Part shown: positions 1 through 23,528 of the stretch, in pieces
How the letters are laid out: every line of letters starts with the position of its first letter
How positions within the stretch are numbered: position 1 is the first letter of the stretch
Virus record (IMG/VR): IMGVR_UViG_3300020045_016851
Location: 1-34,197 of that record
Direction: 5' to 3' (one strand)
Source: a virus
Lineage: Duplodnaviria; Caudoviricetes
Length of the DNA: 34,197 nt
The notes under the pieces: generated by a model
What the model was told of the DNA's origin: nothing
Databases searched by the model: none
What the model saw: only the letters and a program-made list of their open reading frames with translations
Translations under genes and position numbers: made by a program

Positions 1-117
1 GTAGCGGACAAAGCCGGTCCCCATTTCGCCCACGCCGGTGCCCCAACTGGTCGTCTTTTCATTATGGCCGATCATGAACGGCGGGACGCCGAAAATGCGG
101 GCGATCTCCTCGATCTG
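1..117 (-). repeat. Exact 117-bp inverted copy of portal gene segment 2874-2990
   Basis: Bases 1-117 are the reverse complement of 2874-2990; identity breaks at 118/2873. Confidence 0.95.
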
Positions 118-17625: not shown

Positions 17626-19571
17626 GCGCGTTTGAATTGCGGTGGTATGGCGCGGGCGGCTCCACGCTTGACGAAGTGGTCAGGCAGCAGGCGATCATCC
17701 CGGTCATTATTGGTCCGCCGGGGTCGGGTGGCAGCGGTGGCGGCGGCCTGTCGGATGGTGACAAGGGCGACATTGTCGTTTCGGGCGGCGGGACGGTGCT
17801 GGCGATCGACACGACCGTTCTGTCCGCATTCGGGCGGACGCTGACCGATGATGCCAGCGCGACCGCCGCGCGTGTGACGCTGGGTCTGGGGACGGCCGCC
17901 GTGCTGGCATCAACCGCGTTCGATGCGGCGGGCACGGCCGCCAGCGCGGTGGTGGCGCATGCCGCCGCGGGTGACCCGCACCCACAATATCTGACGGTGG
18001 CGGAAGGCGCAGCCACCTATTCGCTGGTCGGGCATACTCATGGCGTTGGCGACGTCACGGGTCTGCAAACCGCGCTGGACGGCAAGGAACCGGCGATCGT
18101 GGCCGGAACAACCGGCCAGTATCTGCGCGGTGACAAGGCATGGGTCGCGCATGACAAGGCGTCGGTCGGCCTGGGCAGCGTCGACAACATCGCATCGGTG
18201 ACCTTGCTGGCCCGCGCGAACCATAGCGGCACACAAGCCGCCGCGACGATCGTTGATTTTGCCGAGGCGGTCGACGACCGTGTCGCCGCGCTGCTGGTGG
18301 CGGGATCGAATATCACGCTGACGTATAATGATGTCGGAAATTCGCTGACGATCGCCGCAGCGGTGACCGGTGGCGGGGGTGGTACGGTCACCGATGTCAC
18401 GGGTACCGCACCGGTGGTTTCGAGCGGTGGCGCGGCACCGGCCATCTCCATGCCCCCCGCGACCGGTGCAGTCGACGGATATATGACGGCGGCAGCCATG
18501 ACCAAGCTGACGGGCATTGCGACCGGCGCGACAGCAAATGCCGCCGACGCGGCCTTGCTGGCGCGGGCGAACCATAGCGGCACACAAGCCGCCGCGACGA
18601 TCGTTGATTTTTCCGAGGCGGTCGACGACCGGGTCGGGTCGCTGCTGGTCGCCGGGACAAATGTCACGCTGACCTATAATGATGCCGGCAATGCGCTGAC
18701 GATCGCCGCTGCTGGTGGTGGTGGCGGCGGTGCGGCAACGTTGCTCACAATCTACGACACACCCGGTTCATTCAGCCACGCGGTCGACCCGGCGGCAATT
18801 AGCATCGACGTGATTGTGATGGGCGCGGGTGGTGGCGGCGGGTCAGGCCGAAAACGTGCGGCCGGGGTGGTGGGCTCTGGCGGGGCCGGCGGGAGCGGTG
18901 GCGCGATATCGTTCGGGTCGTTCCCGGCAGGGCTGCTGGCGACGACGGAAACAGTAACGGTTGGCGCAGGTGGCGTGGGTGCCGCCGGGCAGGCGACCAA
19001 CACAACAAACGGTCTGGCCGGGACGGCGGGAGGCCTGTCATCGTTCGGGGCGTGGCTGGCGGCCAATGGCGGGAACGGCGGTTCGCTGGGCGGGACCACT
19101 GCCGCAGCTGGTGGCGCGGCGGTGACGGCGGGTATGTTCGCCAGCGGCGCGGGCGGTGGTGGGTCGATCACCGGCAATGGTGGCGCCGGATCGCGCGCAG
19201 CGGTGGGGTCATCGGGCGGTGGCGGTGGCGGCGCGATCACGGCAGCAAACGGATTTTATCAAGGCGGCGCGGGCGGTGGTGATCCGTTTTCGACGAGTGG
19301 CACAAGCACCGCCACCGGCGGGGGCGGCACCGGTGGTCCCGGAAACACGTCGGGAAGTTCGGTCGCAGACCGTGTTCCGGGCGACCCGCGCGGTGGCGCG
19401 GGTGGTGGCGGCGGTGGGTCGAGTATTTCGGCCACATCCGGCAGCGGCGCGAACGGACAATTTCCGGGCGGCGGCGGTGGCGGCGGCGGAACCGGGACCA
19501 ATGACGTCACGGATTCTGGCGGTGGCGGCGATGGCGGCGGCGGCCAGGTCATCGTGATCGAGTATTTTTAA
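17622..19571 (+). CDS. Glycine-rich tail (side) fibre protein
   Basis: 'DGDKGDI', 'HAAAGDPHPQY', 'HTHGVGDVTGLQTALDGK', 'ARANHSGTQ' repeats, Gly-rich C-terminal domain ending 'GGGQVIVIEYF'. Confidence 0.85.
   Translation: MSAFELRWYGAGGSTLDEVVRQQAIIPVIIGPPGSGGSGGGGLSDGDKGDIVVSGGGTVLAIDTTVLSAFGRTLTDDASATAARVTLGLGTAAVLASTAFDAAGTAASAVVAHAAAGDPHPQYLTVAEGAATYSLVGHTHGVGDVTGLQTALDGKEPAIVAGTTGQYLRGDKAWVAHDKASVGLGSVDNIASVTLLARANHSGTQAAATIVDFAEAVDDRVAALLVAGSNITLTYNDVGNSLTIAAAVTGGGGGTVTDVTGTAPVVSSGGAAPAISMPPATGAVDGYMTAAAMTKLTGIATGATANAADAALLARANHSGTQAAATIVDFSEAVDDRVGSLLVAGTNVTLTYNDAGNALTIAAAGGGGGGAATLLTIYDTPGSFSHAVDPAAISIDVIVMGAGGGGGSGRKRAAGVVGSGGAGGSGGAISFGSFPAGLLATTETVTVGAGGVGAAGQATNTTNGLAGTAGGLSSFGAWLAANGGNGGSLGGTTAAAGGAAVTAGMFASGAGGGGSITGNGGAGSRAAVGSSGGGGGGAITAANGFYQGGAGGGDPFSTSGTSTATGGGGTGGPGNTSGSSVADRVPGDPRGGAGGGGGGSSISATSGSGANGQFPGGGGGGGGTGTNDVTDSGGGGDGGGGQVIVIEYF
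18202..18709 (+). repeat. Internal ~157-bp direct repeat in the fibre gene (18202-18358 / 18553-18709)
   Basis: Both copies encode LLARANHSGTQAAATIVDFxEAVDDRVxxLLVAGxNxTLTYNDxGNxLTIA; offset 351 bp. Confidence 0.9.
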
Positions 19572-19599
19572 AGTCGAGTATTTTTAAGGGAGACAGATA

Positions 19600-19905
19600 A
19601 TGCCAGCATTGATCGCAGTCCTTGTTAACAACTCCACAATGGCCGTCGAAAACATTGGTCAGGTCGGCACGCCAACGCCAGTCATCAACGGCAAGCAGTT
19701 CCTGTTTTCGTCGCAATGGGCGGCGGGGGTAGCACCAACGATCGGCATGATCTGGAACGGTGACGCGCCCGCGACGTTTGCGCCAGCGCCGATCGTCGAG
19801 CCGGAAATCCTGCCGACAAACGAAGGCGACGCGATCGAACAGATCGAGGCGCAGCTGCAGGCGGCCTTTGATGCGGTGGCGCAGCTGAAGGCGCTGCGCG
19901 GGTGA
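19600..19905 (+). CDS. Hypothetical protein (possible fibre assembly chaperone)
   Basis: RBS AAGGGAG; follows fibre gene; C-terminal coiled coil. Confidence 0.7.
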   Translation: MPALIAVLVNNSTMAVENIGQVGTPTPVINGKQFLFSSQWAAGVAPTIGMIWNGDAPATFAPAPIVEPEILPTNEGDAIEQIEAQLQAAFDAVAQLKALRG

Positions 19906-19916
19906 TCGTGGGGTGT

Positions 19917-20294
19917 TTAGTCCGCCCACTCGACCCGCACATCAAACCCCTCGTCGACCAGTTCGTTGGCCGTCCATGCGGTCAACATCGCGTGGGCGCC
20001 GAGCGGGATGCCTGACGCGTGCGGGCTAGTCGCCTGATGCTCGGGGGTGCGGTAGCGGTATAGCTCGATCACTCCACCGGCCATCCGGTCCGTCGTGAGC
20101 CGCACCACGCTGGCCACTGAGTTGGTCATCGCGTATTCAAGCCGGTCCAGTGCGGCGGGCGCGTCCGCCGGGATGGGTGATGCGCCCGACTGCCAGCGCC
20201 TGATGGTGCGATCCTGCACTCCGCAGAGGGCCGCCGCTTCGTCGACGGACAGGCCGAGGTAGCGGCGGCGCGTGTCGAATTCAGCGGGGGTCAT
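19917..20294 (-). CDS. aca2: Aca2/YdiL (DUF1870)-like HTH anti-CRISPR-associated regulator
   Basis: 125 aa; HTH 'RRRYLGLSVDEAAALCGVQDRTIRRWQSGASPIP' plus C-terminal 'LYRYRT' segment as in recalled Aca2; directly downstream of an Acr-like gene. Confidence 0.75.
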   Translation of the reverse strand: MTPAEFDTRRRYLGLSVDEAAALCGVQDRTIRRWQSGASPIPADAPAALDRLEYAMTNSVASVVRLTTDRMAGGVIELYRYRTPEHQATSPHASGIPLGAHAMLTAWTANELVDEGFDVRVEWAD

Positions 20295-20323
20295 CGGCGG
20301 GTTTTTGCGTTGGCGCGAACAAA

Positions 20324-20518
20324 TCACCAGGCCGCACCAGACCACGGCGCGAAATCCTCGCCAAACTTGGCAAAGTGCTTGTCGGCATAAGTCTGCAAAA
20401 ACAACTGCTCGCTATCGATTCCAGCGGCGTTGAGCATCTCGCGGATTTCGTCGTCCATCAGCACCGCTGCGGCGTCGAAATCAATTTCCTGGCCTGCCTG
20501 GTTAAGTACTTTGGTCAT
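20324..20518 (-). CDS. acrIC5: AcrIC5-like anti-CRISPR protein
   Basis: 64 aa, 12 D/E vs 4 K/R; 'GQEIDFDAAAVLMDDEIRE...FLQTY...H.AKFGEDF' aligns with recalled AcrIC5 'GQQIDFDAAVNLMDAELRE...FLDAY...HAAKFDGEEF'; GGAG RBS. Confidence 0.85.
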   Translation of the reverse strand: MTKVLNQAGQEIDFDAAAVLMDDEIREMLNAAGIDSEQLFLQTYADKHFAKFGEDFAPWSGAAW

Positions 20519-20567
20519 TTATCGTCTCCAGTGGAGGTCGGCTTGCCCTGTTGCCCGCCGATGACCC

Positions 20568-20596
20568 CTTCTATGTCCGGGTTGCGGACATGCCAA
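20568..20596 (-). promoter_or_regulatory. acr-aca promoter with operator palindrome in the spacer
   Basis: Minus strand TTGGCA-17 bp-TAGAAG; palindrome ATGTCCG-N5-CGGACAT (20573-20591) fills the spacer. Confidence 0.75.
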
Positions 20597-20648
20597 ATGT
20601 TATTTTCAAAACCCGCAAACCTGCTCTGCCATCCCGCTGTGCGCGCGG

Positions 20649-20861
20649 TCATCGGCCGTTGCTTTTAGGTTGTGGCGGGACAGTATAAATCACGTCGAAG
20701 AACCACAAGGTGTGGAACAGGGCGATGCACATCGCCCATGTGAGGGCCACCTGCCGGTGGCTGGTCCAGTTGCGAACGTCGGGGTCGCCGACGACCCATG
20801 CACCAATCATGTACACGCTGATTTCGATGGCAATCAGGACCGCGATTTGGTGCAGTTTCAT
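20649..20861 (-). CDS. Hypothetical two-TM membrane protein
   Basis: Two hydrophobic helices; GGAGG upstream; ATGA coupling. Confidence 0.65.
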   Translation of the reverse strand: MKLHQIAVLIAIEISVYMIGAWVVGDPDVRNWTSHRQVALTWAMCIALFHTLWFFDVIYTVPPQPKSNGR

Positions 20862-21067
20862 TTTCTTCGGTCCTCCAGCCAAGCGCGAATGAGTTCGTAC
20901 AGCCAGTCGAGAATGAAGCCTGTCAGAATGCAGGCGATTACTGTTGGAGCTATATTCCAGATCATGGCGTCGATGACTTCGGGGGGGTAGGGGTCATAAG
21001 CAACGCCCAGAGGGCGCGGGGCTGTCATCCGCGCAAGGCTGCGCTCGAAGTCCGTCATGTTATTCAT
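20858..21067 (-). CDS. Hypothetical membrane protein
   Basis: One TM 'IAPTVIACILTGFILDWLY'; overlap-coupled chain. Confidence 0.6.
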   Translation of the reverse strand: MNNMTDFERSLARMTAPRPLGVAYDPYPPEVIDAMIWNIAPTVIACILTGFILDWLYELIRAWLEDRRK

Positions 21068-21245
21068 TCGTCAGCCTCGCTGCCGCGAGAAGTGCGCAGG
21101 CGGCGCGAAAATCGCCGACGTTGATCCACATTTGAGCGGCGTCTTCACCACCCATGCCGGCATCCCAGCCTTGCCGCGTGGCGTCGCCAATCAAGGCATC
21201 AAGGATGCGGAGCAGATCCGCGATCTTGCTTTGCGTATCCATCAT
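21060..21245 (-). CDS. Hypothetical protein
   Basis: Overlap-coupled to both neighbours. Confidence 0.6.
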   Translation of the reverse strand: MMDTQSKIADLLRILDALIGDATRQGWDAGMGGEDAAQMWINVGDFRAACALLAAARLTNE

Positions 21246-21484
21246 TGATTCCCCAGTTGGGCTGGGTCGACGGGGCCGAACGCGGCGCCGCAGGGGTGCG
21301 CCGGATCGACGGGGCCGTAATCGTCTTCGTCGCGCCAGTCCGGTTCAAGGCGCGGGTCGCGTTGGTAGCGGCCGTTGGAATCATTTTCGAGCAGGTCCTT
21401 GATGATCCGGGACAGCAGCACAGCAATCCCGACTGCGCCGAGAGTCAGCGCGGTTAACCCGCAAAGCACCAATTTTAATGTCAT
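21242..21484 (-). CDS. Hypothetical protein with N-terminal TM helix
   Basis: Hydrophobic N-terminus, acidic C-terminus; GGTG RBS-like sequence; ATGA coupling. Confidence 0.6.
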   Translation of the reverse strand: MTLKLVLCGLTALTLGAVGIAVLLSRIIKDLLENDSNGRYQRDPRLEPDWRDEDDYGPVDPAHPCGAAFGPVDPAQLGNQ

Positions 21485-21547
21485 CTCACCACCCCATGGT
21501 CATGGTCCACCTTGTGATTTTTGTTCGGTGTGTTCATGGCCATGGCC

Positions 21548-21811
21548 CCGCCGTTCTCGTTTGCGTTTTTGGTAACGAGAATGGCGGCGGTACAAGATGT
21601 ACCACTTGGGTCAACGCAGACACGGAAATTCGCGGCATAAGTGGCGAAAATGCGCGATCAAAATTGAAAATGTTGTTGGATTTGAGAGGCGGCGTCTCGT
21701 TTACACCGAGAATGTCGCAAGTTCGAGTCTTGCATCGCCCACCAGTATTTCCGCCGTTTTTTCGGGATTTCCCGCATTTTCCGAGAACGGCGGGTGGTAC
21801 GAATGTACCAC
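21548..21811. other. attP region with hairpins and duplicated arm-like sites
   Basis: Non-coding gap next to the int stop; ~30-bp direct repeats at 21576-21605 and 21782-21811 flank a tRNA-derived core. Confidence 0.8.
21692..21744 (+). tRNA. 3' fragment of tRNA-Val(TAC), the att core; not a complete tRNA
   Basis: Anticodon arm TCTCG-TTTACAC-CGAGA, T arm GCAAG-TTCGAGT-CTTGC, 3' acceptor strand ATCGCCC-ACCA; no 5' acceptor strand or D arm. Confidence 0.88.
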
Positions 21812-22786
21812 CTACCAGTTCAGAGCCTCGCTCGCGTCCCGCATGAATGATGGCGAATACCGGGCATAAGTGTGTTCCGTGACCCGCGTCGACGTGTGGC
21901 CGAGGTACTGCGATATTTTCTGCATCGGGATGTCGGCTTCTGCCATCCATACCCCGGCGGTATGGCGGAAAATATGGGGTGAACATGGCACATTTGCCCG
22001 TCGTGCGGCGCTGTTGACCGCCTTCCCGACGTTTTTGATCGCCGCGCCCGCGTACTCGATCACATTGTCCGTCAGCGCTGCTGTGCAAGCCTCTGCCAGC
22101 GCCGCCATGGCCCGTGCGGTGATGGGCACGACTGGGCGGCGCTTGTTCGTCTCGTGCCGCCCGCCCGCTTTCAGGTTGATGAAGCCGCTGTCCATATCGA
22201 CCTGACTCCATTGTAATTCGAGCAGCGCGGACATGCGCGCGCCGGTGGTCACGGCGAGAATGATGAACAGCCGAACATGTGGTGCTTCGACATGCTCTAG
22301 CAACCGGGTCAGCTCGTCGCGCGTCAGATAGCGGTCGCGCGGCGGCGATGCCGGCGGTAGCCACAGCATTGGAGCGTCTGCCTTGCCGAACGCGAAACGC
22401 AAACAGGCGCGCAGCAATTCCATTTCCGTCCGGATTGTGCTGTCCGACCGGCCTTGCCGTTTCCGGATGTCGTAATGGGCATGGCAGTCCGTTCGGGTGA
22501 TGACCCGGCCGAGGCGATGGCCAAAGGATGGCTTCAGCGCGCGCCAGGTCGATCCGGCTGAGTCGACCGTCACCCCGTTTGCCTTGCGATCCGCAATATA
22601 AGCGGGCCATAAATCCTCTACCCGGTCACTGACGGGTGCGGTGCGCGCGCGCCAGATGTCACGAGCGCGAGCTTCTGCGAGCCCTCGGTCATCCGTGCCA
22701 AGCGCGACGCGAACGCGCTGGCCTCGGTCGCCTGTATAAGCGAGGGCGAATCCACCTCTGTGGATGGCAATGCGATAGTCAGGCAT
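21812..22786 (-). CDS. int: Tyrosine integrase
   Basis: 'TTGARMSAL', 'PHIFRHT', 'YLGHTS', 'TYARY' catalytic motifs; adjacent att core. Confidence 0.95.
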   Translation of the reverse strand: MPDYRIAIHRGGFALAYTGDRGQRVRVALGTDDRGLAEARARDIWRARTAPVSDRVEDLWPAYIADRKANGVTVDSAGSTWRALKPSFGHRLGRVITRTDCHAHYDIRKRQGRSDSTIRTEMELLRACLRFAFGKADAPMLWLPPASPPRDRYLTRDELTRLLEHVEAPHVRLFIILAVTTGARMSALLELQWSQVDMDSGFINLKAGGRHETNKRRPVVPITARAMAALAEACTAALTDNVIEYAGAAIKNVGKAVNSAARRANVPCSPHIFRHTAGVWMAEADIPMQKISQYLGHTSTRVTEHTYARYSPSFMRDASEALNW

Positions 22787-22938
22787 TCGACGCGATCGAC
22801 CTCCGTGGCGGGTATGCGGATCAATTTGCCGAGCCTGAACCCGGCGATGCTTCCGCCCTTGTACATGCGCCGAATTTTCTCGGCACTGCAACCCCAGCGC
22901 TCGGCCAGAGTCTCGGGTGAAAATGGGCGATTGATCAT
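22618..22938 (-). CDS. xis: Excisionase (HTH)
   Basis: 'FSPETLAERWGCSAEKIRRM...GFRLGKLIRIP'; upstream of and overlapping int. Confidence 0.82.
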   Translation of the reverse strand: MINRPFSPETLAERWGCSAEKIRRMYKGGSIAGFRLGKLIRIPATEVDRVECLTIALPSTEVDSPSLIQATEASAFASRLARMTEGSQKLALVTSGARAPHPSVTG

Positions 22939-23528
22939 TTCGCTGACTCCTTGAGCAGTTCGATCAGGTCTGCGCGTTGAAGTGCTCGCTCTTCGGCGGC
23001 GGCGGCGTCGGCGAGGGAAGCGGTGGCGTAGGCTGCGTCGGCGAGGGAAGCGGTGGCGTAGGCTGCGGCGTAGACGGCGGCGGAGGCTGCGGTGGCGGCG
23101 TCGGTGGCTGCGTTGGCGGCGGCTGTGGCGGCGTAGACGGCGTCGGCGTAGGCGTGGGCGTGGGCGTAGGCGAGGGCGCGGGCGTGGGCGTCGGCGTAGG
23201 CGTGGGCGTGGGCGAGGGCGCGGGCGCGGGCGTCGGCGTAGGCGTGGGCGTGGGCGAGGGCGCGGGCGCGGGCGCGGGCGGTGGCGTAGGCTGCGGTGGC
23301 GGTGGCGTTGGCGGCGTAGCCTGTCGCTCGTCTAGCGCATCGGTTCGCGAAGGTGCCGAGGGCGTCACGGAGTTGGAGCTGTCCAGCGACCCAGAGGATG
23401 TTGCTGATGGGGAAACCGGCGTCGAAGGCTTCGGCGACGTCGAGGGCGTCGGCGGTGCCGAAGCGGGCGAGGTGGGCTTTGAGGTCGCACGGATCGAGTG
23501 CGATTAGGGCGGTTTTGGTGAGTTTCAT
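22935..23528 (-). CDS. Hypothetical Ala-rich repeat protein
   Basis: Overlap-coupled at both ends; unique N- and C-termini flank AYADA/ARALAHAH repeats. Confidence 0.75.
   Translation of the reverse strand: MKLTKTALIALDPCDLKAHLARFGTADALDVAEAFDAGFPISNILWVAGQLQLRDALGTFANRCARRATGYAANATATAAYATARARARALAHAHAYADARARALAHAHAYADAHARALAYAHAHAYADAVYAATAAANAATDAATAASAAVYAAAYATASLADAAYATASLADAAAAEERALQRADLIELLKESAK
22993..23320. repeat. Low-complexity nested tandem repeats
   Basis: 30-bp GCGTCGGCGAGGGAAGCGGTGGCGTAGGCT duplication and repeated GCGTAG/GCGTGG/GCGCGG hexamers. Confidence 0.85.

What the first reader, a model, noticed from the sequence alone, without database searches (positions are those of the whole stretch)
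19917..20596. Stand-alone anti-CRISPR operon: AcrIC5-like gene paired with an Aca2/YdiL-like HTH regulator
Seen: a two-gene leftward unit with its own promoter, converging on the late operon. It encodes a 64-aa acidic protein and a 125-aa HTH protein. Knowledge: the small protein carries the IDFDAA..LMD.E.RE and FL..Y...H..KFGE(D/E)F pattern of AcrIC5 as I recall it. AcrIC5 is an acidic inhibitor of type I-C Cascade. The HTH protein has the size and layout of Aca2. Inference: this is a functional acr-aca locus in an alphaproteobacterial phage against a host type I-C system. The regulator may be a divergent Aca usable as bait to find new Acrs.
Basis: partly seen in the sequence, partly recalled or inferred. 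Interest (0 to 1): 0.85.

Follow-up and report, generated by a model that had tools for sequence, protein, structure and literature searches.

The report
Phage AcrIC5–Aca2 anti-CRISPR operon
A temperate phage carries a two-gene unit, an AcrIC5-family protein predicted to block type I-C CRISPR immunity plus a divergent Aca2-family repressor, and related prophages carry the same repressor and control signals in front of unknown small genes that are likely new anti-defence genes.

Summary
Confirmed. 20324-20518(-) encodes an acidic 64-aa AcrIC5-family protein (Pfam 59.8 bits, cut-off 27; model vs 7yhr Z 10.4, rmsd 1.2 A). 19917-20294(-) encodes a 125-aa Aca2-fold protein that barely passes Pfam's cut-off. 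Upstream lie a -35/-10 pair with a 7-5-7 palindrome between them and a two-hairpin leader hiding the ribosome site, laid out like the Aca2-bound leader of phage ZF40. A modelled complex puts the protein on the PAM-reading loops of a stand-in Cas8c (score 0.81, best control 0.00). Nothing was shown experimentally and the host, probably a sphingomonad, is unknown. The bait idea holds: 9 of 9 readable related loci keep the leader in front of 14 genes matching no Pfam or PHROG family. All 4 bacterial genomes among them have cas1 (background 43 of 200), none has cas8c, and one has an intact-looking type II-C Cas9 with a 30/30 spacer against the very prophage carrying the cassette, pointing to two candidate anti-Cas9 genes. 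New variant of a known kind. The scan noted Aca2-type operons before on other genomes, none alike in sequence.

The parts
20591..20596 (-). Predicted -35 box (TTGGCA)
   Evidence: TTGNCA/TTGCGA at the same place in 9 of 9 related loci
20573..20591 (.). Predicted Aca operator: perfect 7-5-7 inverted repeat filling the 17-bp -35/-10 spacer
   Evidence: single copy in the window with up to 2 mismatches (17 of 100 shuffles give one, so alone it is not significant); same CCG-N5-CGG palindrome at the same position in 8 of 9 related loci
20568..20573 (-). Predicted -10 box (TAGAAG; lacks the final T, as in L005, L009, L014)
   Evidence: not listed by the consensus scan
20538..20561 (-). Leader hairpin 1 (predicted transcript start A20562), likely Aca-bound RNA element
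   Evidence: MFE fold z -2.5 for the leader; same hairpin in 10 of 10 leaders folded; covariation weak
20526..20536 (-). Leader hairpin 2, whose 3' arm is the ribosome-binding site GGAG, 7 nt before the acr start
20324..20518 (-). acrIC5-family gene, 64 aa, pI 4.1
20295..20323 (-). 29-nt intergenic spacer without a ribosome-binding site (9 of 9 relatives instead overlap stop and start codons)
19917..20294 (-). Aca2/YdiL-family HTH repressor gene, 125 aa, divergent subfamily
20287..20568 (.). 15-bp perfect inverted repeat (arms 20287-20301 and 20554-20568) bracketing the acr gene; unexplained, not conserved
   Evidence: 0 of 300 shuffles; absent from 9 relatives

Best explanation
This is a two-gene operon of a temperate phage encoding an AcrIC5-family protein, predicted to block type I-C Cascade by occupying the PAM-binding site of Cas8c, and an Aca2-family protein that likely represses the operon through a promoter palindrome and a two-hairpin mRNA leader. 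Steps: (1) host RNA polymerase likely transcribes it on entry from the -35/-10 pair (inferred from conserved layout); (2) the acidic 64-aa protein would plug the basic PAM clamp of Cas8c so that Cascade cannot load on phage or prophage DNA (family activity published, binding site modelled here); (3) the Aca dimer would bind the 7-5-7 palindrome between -35 and -10 and shut transcription (inferred from ZF40 Aca2 and from position); (4) it would also bind the two leader hairpins and keep the ribosome site closed (inferred, least certain). The promoter-leader-aca frame is a cassette whose cargo is swapped between prophages (shown by comparison of 10 loci).
For: Acr: Pfam AcrIC5 59.8 bits; 7yhr by sequence and by fold, Z 10.4, rmsd 1.2 A over 57 residues, 49% identity, next hit Z 2.6; keeps the five most conserved family residues plus invariant H48 (M21, D22, E27, Q38, Y44). 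AcrIC5 blocks CRISPRi and inhibits both P. aeruginosa and E. lenta I-C systems, and a distant Bifidobacterium homologue is active (passages of PMC7913775; PMC10651486). Predicted complex with a stand-in Cas8c (L022, residues 1-460): score 0.81, best of 3 controls 0.00; this mark was reached by 116 of 157 solved complexes and 2 of 215 mismatched pairs; runs agree in at least 94% of contacts, partner pLDDT at least 89. Interface residues 67-72, 90-96, 210-215, 341-344 align to D. vulgaris N72, K92/K93, Q212, R363, the published PAM-reading loops (10.1101/2022.06.15.496202); an independent AF3 prediction puts AcrIC5 at the same site (10.1101/2025.06.06.658234). Aca: model has the six helices and two strands of ZF40 Aca2; fold matches SO3848 Z 15.9 (1.7 A, 125 aligned) and Aca2 7vjq Z 13.3 (2.4 A, 114 aligned), next other family Z 6.8; R29 aligns to DNA-binding R30. 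Control elements: same layout in 9 of 9 readable related loci, in 0 of 7 distant solo Aca2-like genes; found also before a canonical Aca2 (L114, Pfam 59.5 bits); the ZF40 leader probe printed in the supplement of PMC13551039 starts with the same five letters AUCGG and has the same hairpin-CUCC hairpin order (compared by eye). Hosts of related cassettes have cas1 in 4 of 4 vs 43 of 200.
Against: No experiment. The host is unknown, so its type I-C system is not shown; cas8c occurs in only 10 of 301 and 11 of 301 sampled genomes of the likely order and class, and in 0 of 4 hosts of related cassettes. The Cas8c was a stand-in and Cascade complexes with other acidic PAM blockers (AcrIF2, AcrIC4) are solved, so the pass may reflect likeness; controls were not chosen to be acidic. 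Position 30 is N where 36 of 66 homologues have H (7 have N). Two PF22147 hits in other alphaproteobacterial genomes sit among non-phage-looking genes, one with pI 6.8, so family membership alone does not prove activity. Only 3% of Aca2-like proteins had a known acr upstream in PMC9410906. Leader covariation is not significant (2 pairs with double changes, 192 of 500 shuffles as high; paired cells 76% vs 71%, 12 of 500). The -10 is non-consensus and the aca gene has neither ribosome site nor coupling.
Confidence: 0.8

Rival explanations
1. The operon is a real acr-aca unit but repression is at DNA level only; the leader hairpins are a fixed translation brake or a relic and are not bound by this Aca.
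For: Covariation not significant; two of three base-reading residues of ZF40 Aca2 differ here (Y34 to R33, R39 to A38); Aca10 and Aca12 did not shift their predicted RNA motifs (PMC13551039); similar leaders also precede non-Aca2 HTH genes (L017, L055).
Against: Two-hairpin leader of constant length (43-48 nt) in 10 of 10 loci of this clade and before a canonical Aca2; absent at 7 of 7 distant solo homologues.
Confidence: 0.2
2. The 64-aa protein has the AcrIC5 fold but is inactive or acts on another target (another Cascade type or another DNA-binding defence protein) in this host.
For: Type I-C is rare in the likely host group; H30 not kept; AcrIC5-like genes in non-phage-looking contexts exist.
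Against: 49% structure-aligned identity to a validated AcrIC5, intact ORF with ribosome site, acidic, modelled on the PAM clamp; family is active across phyla.
Confidence: 0.12
3. The 15-bp inverted repeat makes the acr gene an invertible on/off segment, or pairs the leader with the aca start codon to delay repressor synthesis.
For: Perfect 15-bp arms 252 nt apart, 0 of 300 shuffles; the window is the only one of 10 loci without stop-start coupling.
Against: Not conserved (longest match 4-10 nt in 9 relatives); from the predicted transcript start the leader:aca duplex (-21.5) is no better than the median control window (-21.1); three other 15-bp or longer inverted pairs lie far apart in the window by apparent chance; parts of both arms are ancestral conserved sequence; no invertase other than the integrase was noted among 36 ORFs scanned.
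Confidence: 0.05
4. The pair is a toxin-antitoxin-like or other non-CRISPR module with an MqsA-like regulator.
For: Weak HTH similarity to MqsA/HigA antitoxins (Z about 5.5).
Against: The small protein matches only AcrIC5 by sequence and fold; whole-length fold of the regulator is Aca2/YdiL.
Confidence: 0.03

Closest known systems
AcrIC5 (PF22147, PDB 7yhr; Leon et al. 2021, PMC7913775)
   Same: Sequence family, fold (rmsd 1.2 A, 49% identity), size, acidity, conserved core residues, predicted PAM-site binding on Cas8c.
   Different: Original is linked to aca1 in Pseudomonas; here to an Aca2-family gene. N instead of the majority H at position 30; short C-terminal tail ending in W, as in many metagenomic homologues.
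acrIF8-aca2 operon of Pectobacterium phage ZF40 (PMC6765145, PMC8434428, PMC8633003, PMC13551039)
   Same: acr-then-aca order, Aca2 fold, palindrome over the core promoter, two-hairpin leader with the ribosome site in hairpin 2, conserved recognition-helix Arg.
   Different: About 21-24% structure-aligned identity; operator half-site GTCC with 7 bp between halves instead of GTTC with 8; Y34 and R39 not kept; cargo is AcrIC5 not AcrIF8; 8 of 9 related Aca proteins fall below Pfam's Aca2 cut-off and form a compact clade far from a canonical Aca2 (long branch, rough tree).
Solo Aca2-like regulators YdiL and SO3848 (PDB 1s4k, 2ox6)
   Same: Fold; SO3848 is the best structural match (Z 15.9).
   Different: They are chromosomal and not tied to a known acr (PMC8434428); this one is in a phage, directly behind a known Acr family, with operator and leader.
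acrIC5-racrIC1 locus of a Bifidobacterium prophage (PMC10651486)
   Same: AcrIC5 homologue in a small anti-CRISPR operon.
   Different: No repeat-like RNA detected downstream here (Rfam scan of 19500-21900 gave no CRISPR repeat match up to E 5).

Membership tests
AcrIC5 | Sequence match to the family model above cut-off | tested here: met
   59.8 bits vs 27; 7yhr E 9e-9
AcrIC5 | Same fold as 7yhr | tested here: met
   Z 10.4, rmsd 1.2 A, 57 aligned; model pLDDT 97
AcrIC5 | Small and strongly acidic, conserved core residues | tested here: met
   pI 4.09 (family median 4.3 over 67 rows); M21, D22, E27, Q38, Y44, H48 kept; N30 differs from majority H
AcrIC5 | Binds Cas8c at the PAM site | tested here: inconclusive
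   Model supports but does not show binding: 0.81 vs best control 0.00, stand-in Cas8c
AcrIC5 | Inhibits type I-C interference in cells | not testable with these tools
   needs a plaque or plasmid assay
Aca2 / YdiL (PF08965) | Sequence match above cut-off | tested here: met
   23.9 vs 23.8 bits, marginal; 7ezy E 2e-4
Aca2 / YdiL (PF08965) | HTH + long helix 4 + C-terminal dimerisation unit (6 helices, 2 strands) | tested here: met
Aca2 / YdiL (PF08965) | Base-reading residues R30, Y34, R39 and GTTC half-site of ZF40 Aca2 | tested here: not met
   R30 kept (R29); Y34 is R33, R39 is A38; half-site GTCC with 1 bp shorter spacing. PMC8633003 notes R39 and half-site vary among homologues, so this marks a subfamily, not exclusion
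acr-aca2 operon | aca directly downstream of a known acr in a mobile element | tested here: met
acr-aca2 operon | Inverted repeat overlapping the core promoter | tested here: met
acr-aca2 operon | Two conserved 5' leader hairpins, second holding the ribosome site | tested here: met
   10 of 10 leaders by MFE; covariation weak
acr-aca2 operon | Leader belongs to the published Aca2 'proteo' RNA motif | not testable with these tools
   Birkholz 2024 not held; no Rfam match; only a by-eye comparison with one probe
acr-aca2 operon | Aca binds DNA and RNA and represses | not testable with these tools
   needs EMSA and reporters

The most novel reading that the evidence does not exclude
This locus is the anchor that identifies a so far unused, mostly sub-threshold Aca2 subfamily with its own operator as the anti-defence cassette of alphaproteobacterial prophages; its orphan cargo includes new anti-CRISPR families, in particular an anti-Cas9 (type II-C) protein among the two genes (65 and 76 aa) of locus L008, whose prophage is hit 30/30 by a spacer of the intact-looking Cas9 system lying beside it.
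Probability: 0.5. Interest if true: 0.7.

Novelty: new variant of a known kind. Interest (0 to 1): 0.5.

Why it matters
The locus itself is a textbook acr-aca operon with a pairing (AcrIC5 with Aca2) that I did not find in print. Its value is as a key: it ties a divergent Aca2 clade, mostly missed by the Pfam cut-off, to a validated Acr family, and thereby nominates 14 orphan genes from little-studied alphaproteobacterial prophages as anti-defence candidates, two of them with a direct self-targeting argument for Cas9 inhibition. Operator and recognition helix change together within the clade (L008), which offers a small natural system for studying how Aca2 specificity and its dual DNA/RNA binding evolve.

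Tried and rejected
Host CRISPR and self-targeting for the window itself: G000 is only the 34,197-base virus record, so not testable. Sequencing runs: none was listed for 19300-21500, so expression and inversion could not be examined. RNA anti-CRISPR next to the acr: no Rfam CRISPR-repeat match; not excluded. Long-range leader:aca RNA pairing: looked strong in a whole-message fold but no better than control windows from the predicted start and not conserved; set aside. Further operator or leader copies in the window: one only. Operator-only pattern search in viral contigs: 35 loci, 34 without the leader or an Aca gene, taken as chance; leader patterns gave 12 loci, 2 already held, 2 new real-looking (L112, L114), the rest not supported. 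Leader model over 151 genomes of the order: only the known locus. tRNA fragment as host marker: best 89% identity, not diagnostic; ARAGORN found no whole tRNA. Phage database search with the capsid protein gave no relative above 56%. Cargo genes: no Pfam match at cut-off for 15 plus 6 more, none in PHROGs for 21, none in NCBIfam for 18, Atlas best scores 0.84 for the 2 tried, no PDB sequence match for the two L008 genes; these blanks show no function. Loci dropped before the 9-locus count: L001 (same region as L009, no upstream), L011 (weak 32% partial match), L013 and L016 (too little upstream DNA). Literature: searches 'AcrIC5' (14 papers), 'AcrIC5 + Aca2' (3), 'anti-CRISPR + Sphingomonas + phage + type I-C' (0), Aca2 searches showed no AcrIC5-Aca2 operon; subscription papers and unseen supplements may hold one.

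Full report
Observation. The window is a whole virus record of 34,197 bases: a temperate tailed phage with head and tail genes on the + strand up to 19905, then leftward small genes, a tRNA-Val 3' fragment at about 21692-21744 (likely attP), integrase, excisionase-like gene, repressor and primase.

The small protein is an AcrIC5-family member. Pfam PF22147 scores 59.8 bits against a cut-off of 27; the only significant PDB sequence match is AcrIC5 7yhr (E 9e-9); 244 cluster representatives among 1.84 billion match at E 0.001 or better, at most about 60% identical. An AlphaFold2 model from 67 aligned rows (chosen from the 150 listed plus 2 earlier hits as near-full-length short forms; pLDDT 97) superposes on 7yhr at Z 10.4, rmsd 1.2 A over 57 residues, the next hit at Z 2.6. 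It is acidic (pI 4.09) and keeps the most conserved residues, except N30 where 36 of 66 homologues have H. Published function (passages read): AcrIC5 blocks DNA binding by Cascade and inhibits I-C systems of P. aeruginosa and E. lenta (PMC7913775); a Bifidobacterium homologue is active too (PMC10651486); AF3 places it on the Cas8c PAM site (10.1101/2025.06.06.658234). My one complex job, with residues 1-460 of a Cas8c from a genome of the likely host order (L022; 17-row alignment), scored 0.81 against a best control of 0.00; that mark was reached by 116 of 157 solved complexes and 2 of 215 mismatched pairs, runs agreed in at least 94% of contacts and partner pLDDT was at least 89. The Cas8c contacts (67-72, 90-96, 199-202, 210-215, 341-344) align to D. 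vulgaris N72, K92/K93, Q212 and R363, the four PAM-reading loops (10.1101/2022.06.15.496202, passages). This supports but does not show binding: the Cas8c is a stand-in and other acidic Acr-Cascade complexes are solved.

The second protein is an Aca2-family regulator, but a divergent one. It passes PF08965 by 0.1 bit and matches Aca2 7ezy at E 2e-4. Its model (pLDDT 96) has helices 3-12, 17-24, 28-36, 44-70, 84-88, 98-114 and strands 75-80, 118-123, nearly the published layout of ZF40 Aca2 (PMC8434428, parts 2-3 of 4 read); best folds are SO3848 (Z 15.9), four Aca2 entries plus 7b5j (Z 12.8-13.3) and YdiL (12.2), then a drop to 6.8. R30 is kept, Y34 and R39 are not (PMC8633003 section 11). 23 homologues of 48-69% identity were found; the only one with an organism name is from Sphingomonadales, and the best named integrase hit is Sphingomonas paeninsulae at 67%, so a sphingomonad host is likely, not shown. 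A rough tree of 37 rows keeps these proteins in a short-branched group far from a canonical Aca2 (L114) and from chromosomal solo homologues (long-branch warning, bootstrap not settled).

Control elements. Upstream of the acr lie TTGGCA, 17 bp, TAGAAG, with a perfect 7-5-7 palindrome filling the spacer, then a 44-nt leader that folds into a bulged hairpin and a second hairpin whose 3' arm is the ribosome site. The consensus scan did not list this promoter and the palindrome alone is not rare (17 of 100 shuffles). The case rests on conservation: three scans gave 13 locus rows; 9 had a full-length homologue and readable upstream DNA; 8 of the 9 have the same CCG-N5-CGG palindrome between -35 and -10, the ninth (L008) another palindrome and another recognition helix; all 9 leaders and the window's fold into the same two hairpins, z -1.35 to -4.2. 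Covariation is weak. A model built from these 10 finds them by construction, finds no match at 7 of 7 distant solo Aca2-like genes, and newly finds L017, L112 and L114 (E 2e-7 to 9e-10), the last in front of a canonical Aca2 with a GTTC-N8-GAAC operator. Aca2 is published to repress through a promoter palindrome (PMC6765145, passages) and through two leader hairpins (PMC13551039, abstract, passages, section 18, supplement search; the primary 2024 Nature paper is not held). The ZF40 leader probe in that supplement begins with the same AUCGG as my predicted transcript and has the same order of hairpin, short linker, CUCC hairpin with ribosome site (by eye).

The cassette as bait. In the 9 relatives the frame holds 14 different small genes, none matching Pfam at cut-off, PHROGs or NCBIfam, none AcrIC5-like; 1 of the 9 Aca proteins passes Pfam's Aca2 cut-off. 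The loci sit at prophage ends beside lysis genes, integrases or att sites. All 4 bacterial genomes among them have cas1 against 43 of 200 sampled genomes of the class (centre genome left out; one positive, G344, is unpublished); by hand, Fisher P about 0.003, not corrected for genome size or completeness. Three have type II-C Cas9 and one a type III locus with RT-Cas1; none has cas8c. In G002 (L008) a 46-kb prophage bounded by direct repeats at C131:14777 and 60877 carries the cassette at its end and lies beside a cas9-cas1 locus; of 10 spacers one matches the prophage 30/30 and one 29/30 (mismatch near the 3' end), both followed by C-N-N-N-G-C-G; the Cas9 keeps RuvC I-III and HNH motifs. This is the classic self-targeting argument for an anti-Cas9 gene, most simply one of the two cargo genes; the caveat is that the contig is metagenome-assembled and may merge lysogens and immune strains, and the inhibitor could lie elsewhere in the prophage. 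In G003 (Hephaestia caeni) 1 of 20 spacers matches its prophage at 27/30, which is weaker.

Against my reading: no experiment, no reads, unknown host, type I-C rare in the likely host group (10 of 301, 11 of 301), AcrIC5-like genes in non-phage-looking settings (2 of 301 genomes), most Aca2-like proteins lack a known acr (PMC9410906, passages), and this aca lacks both a ribosome site and the stop-start overlap seen in 9 of 9 relatives. A perfect 15-bp inverted repeat brackets the acr gene (0 of 300 shuffles) but is not conserved and gives no special RNA duplex from the predicted start; it stays unexplained.

Novelty. acr-aca2 operons, dual DNA/RNA control by Aca2, shuffling of acr-aca pairs and AcrIC5's promiscuity for Aca partners are all published (AcaFinder, passages: AcrIC5 with Aca1 and 10 predicted families; Aca2 with F- and II-C-type Acrs). 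I found no AcrIC5-Aca2 operon or sphingomonad case in the searches named; the 2024 paper's motif lists and other unseen supplements may already include this clade. Verdict: real, new variant of a known kind; moderate interest, carried mainly by the candidate list and the self-targeting Cas9 case.

Noticed in passing
G002:C131:6790-60877 (L123, L126-L128, L008): Type II-C cas9 locus beside a 46-kb prophage that two of its 10 spacers target (30/30 and 29/30, shared 3' NNNNGCG); the prophage's Aca2-like cassette carries two orphan genes (65 and 76 aa), candidate anti-Cas9 proteins.
   Followed up: partly
L009:5666-6001 and L005:2178-2501: The gene just before aca encodes a protein whose C-terminal half resembles the Aca2 dimerisation domain without the HTH (hhalign 82%, E 1e-5 for L009; 9% for L005; the two are homologous). 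Possible decoy dimer partner or Aca-derived cargo.
   Followed up: partly
window 20287-20301 and 20554-20568: 15-bp perfect inverted repeat bracketing the acr gene, overlapping the -10/start region and the aca start codon; window-specific.
   Followed up: partly
window 20291-20323: After the acr stop the same frame runs 10 more codons to a TGA overlapping the aca ATG, as if the end of an earlier coupled cargo gene were left behind; a one-in-three chance event otherwise.
   Followed up: no
window 21692-21744: 3' part of a tRNA-Val(TAC) next to the integrase, flanked by hairpins: likely attP. L006 also has a tRNA 3' part directly before its cassette.
   Followed up: partly
window 1-117 and about 2874-2990: The first 117 bases are an exact inverted copy of portal-gene sequence; probably an assembly artefact at the contig start.
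   Followed up: no
L017:1443-1528 (-): Nearly the same operator and a related leader in another viral contig, before an acidic 99-aa orphan and a 63-aa short HTH gene that is not Aca2-like.
   Followed up: partly
L045 and L040, L055: More distant Aca2-like or other HTH cassettes with related two-hairpin leaders; L045 has two such promoters in tandem before different genes.
   Followed up: partly
L120:1027-1179 (-) and L121:326-514 (-): AcrIC5-family genes among non-phage-looking genes in two alphaproteobacterial genomes, without an Aca2 neighbour; both genomes have cas1.
   Followed up: partly
L002:2501-2680: An AcrIC5 homologue (58%) behind its own promoter, directly followed by a transposase-like gene.
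   Followed up: no
L122 (G001:C7:74000-93999): Type III CRISPR locus with a reverse transcriptase-Cas1 fusion in the Bosea genome that carries a related cassette.
   Followed up: no
window 22935-23528 (-): 197-aa ORF over a low-complexity repeat (AHAHAYADARARAL-like units); no Pfam or PHROG match.
   Followed up: no
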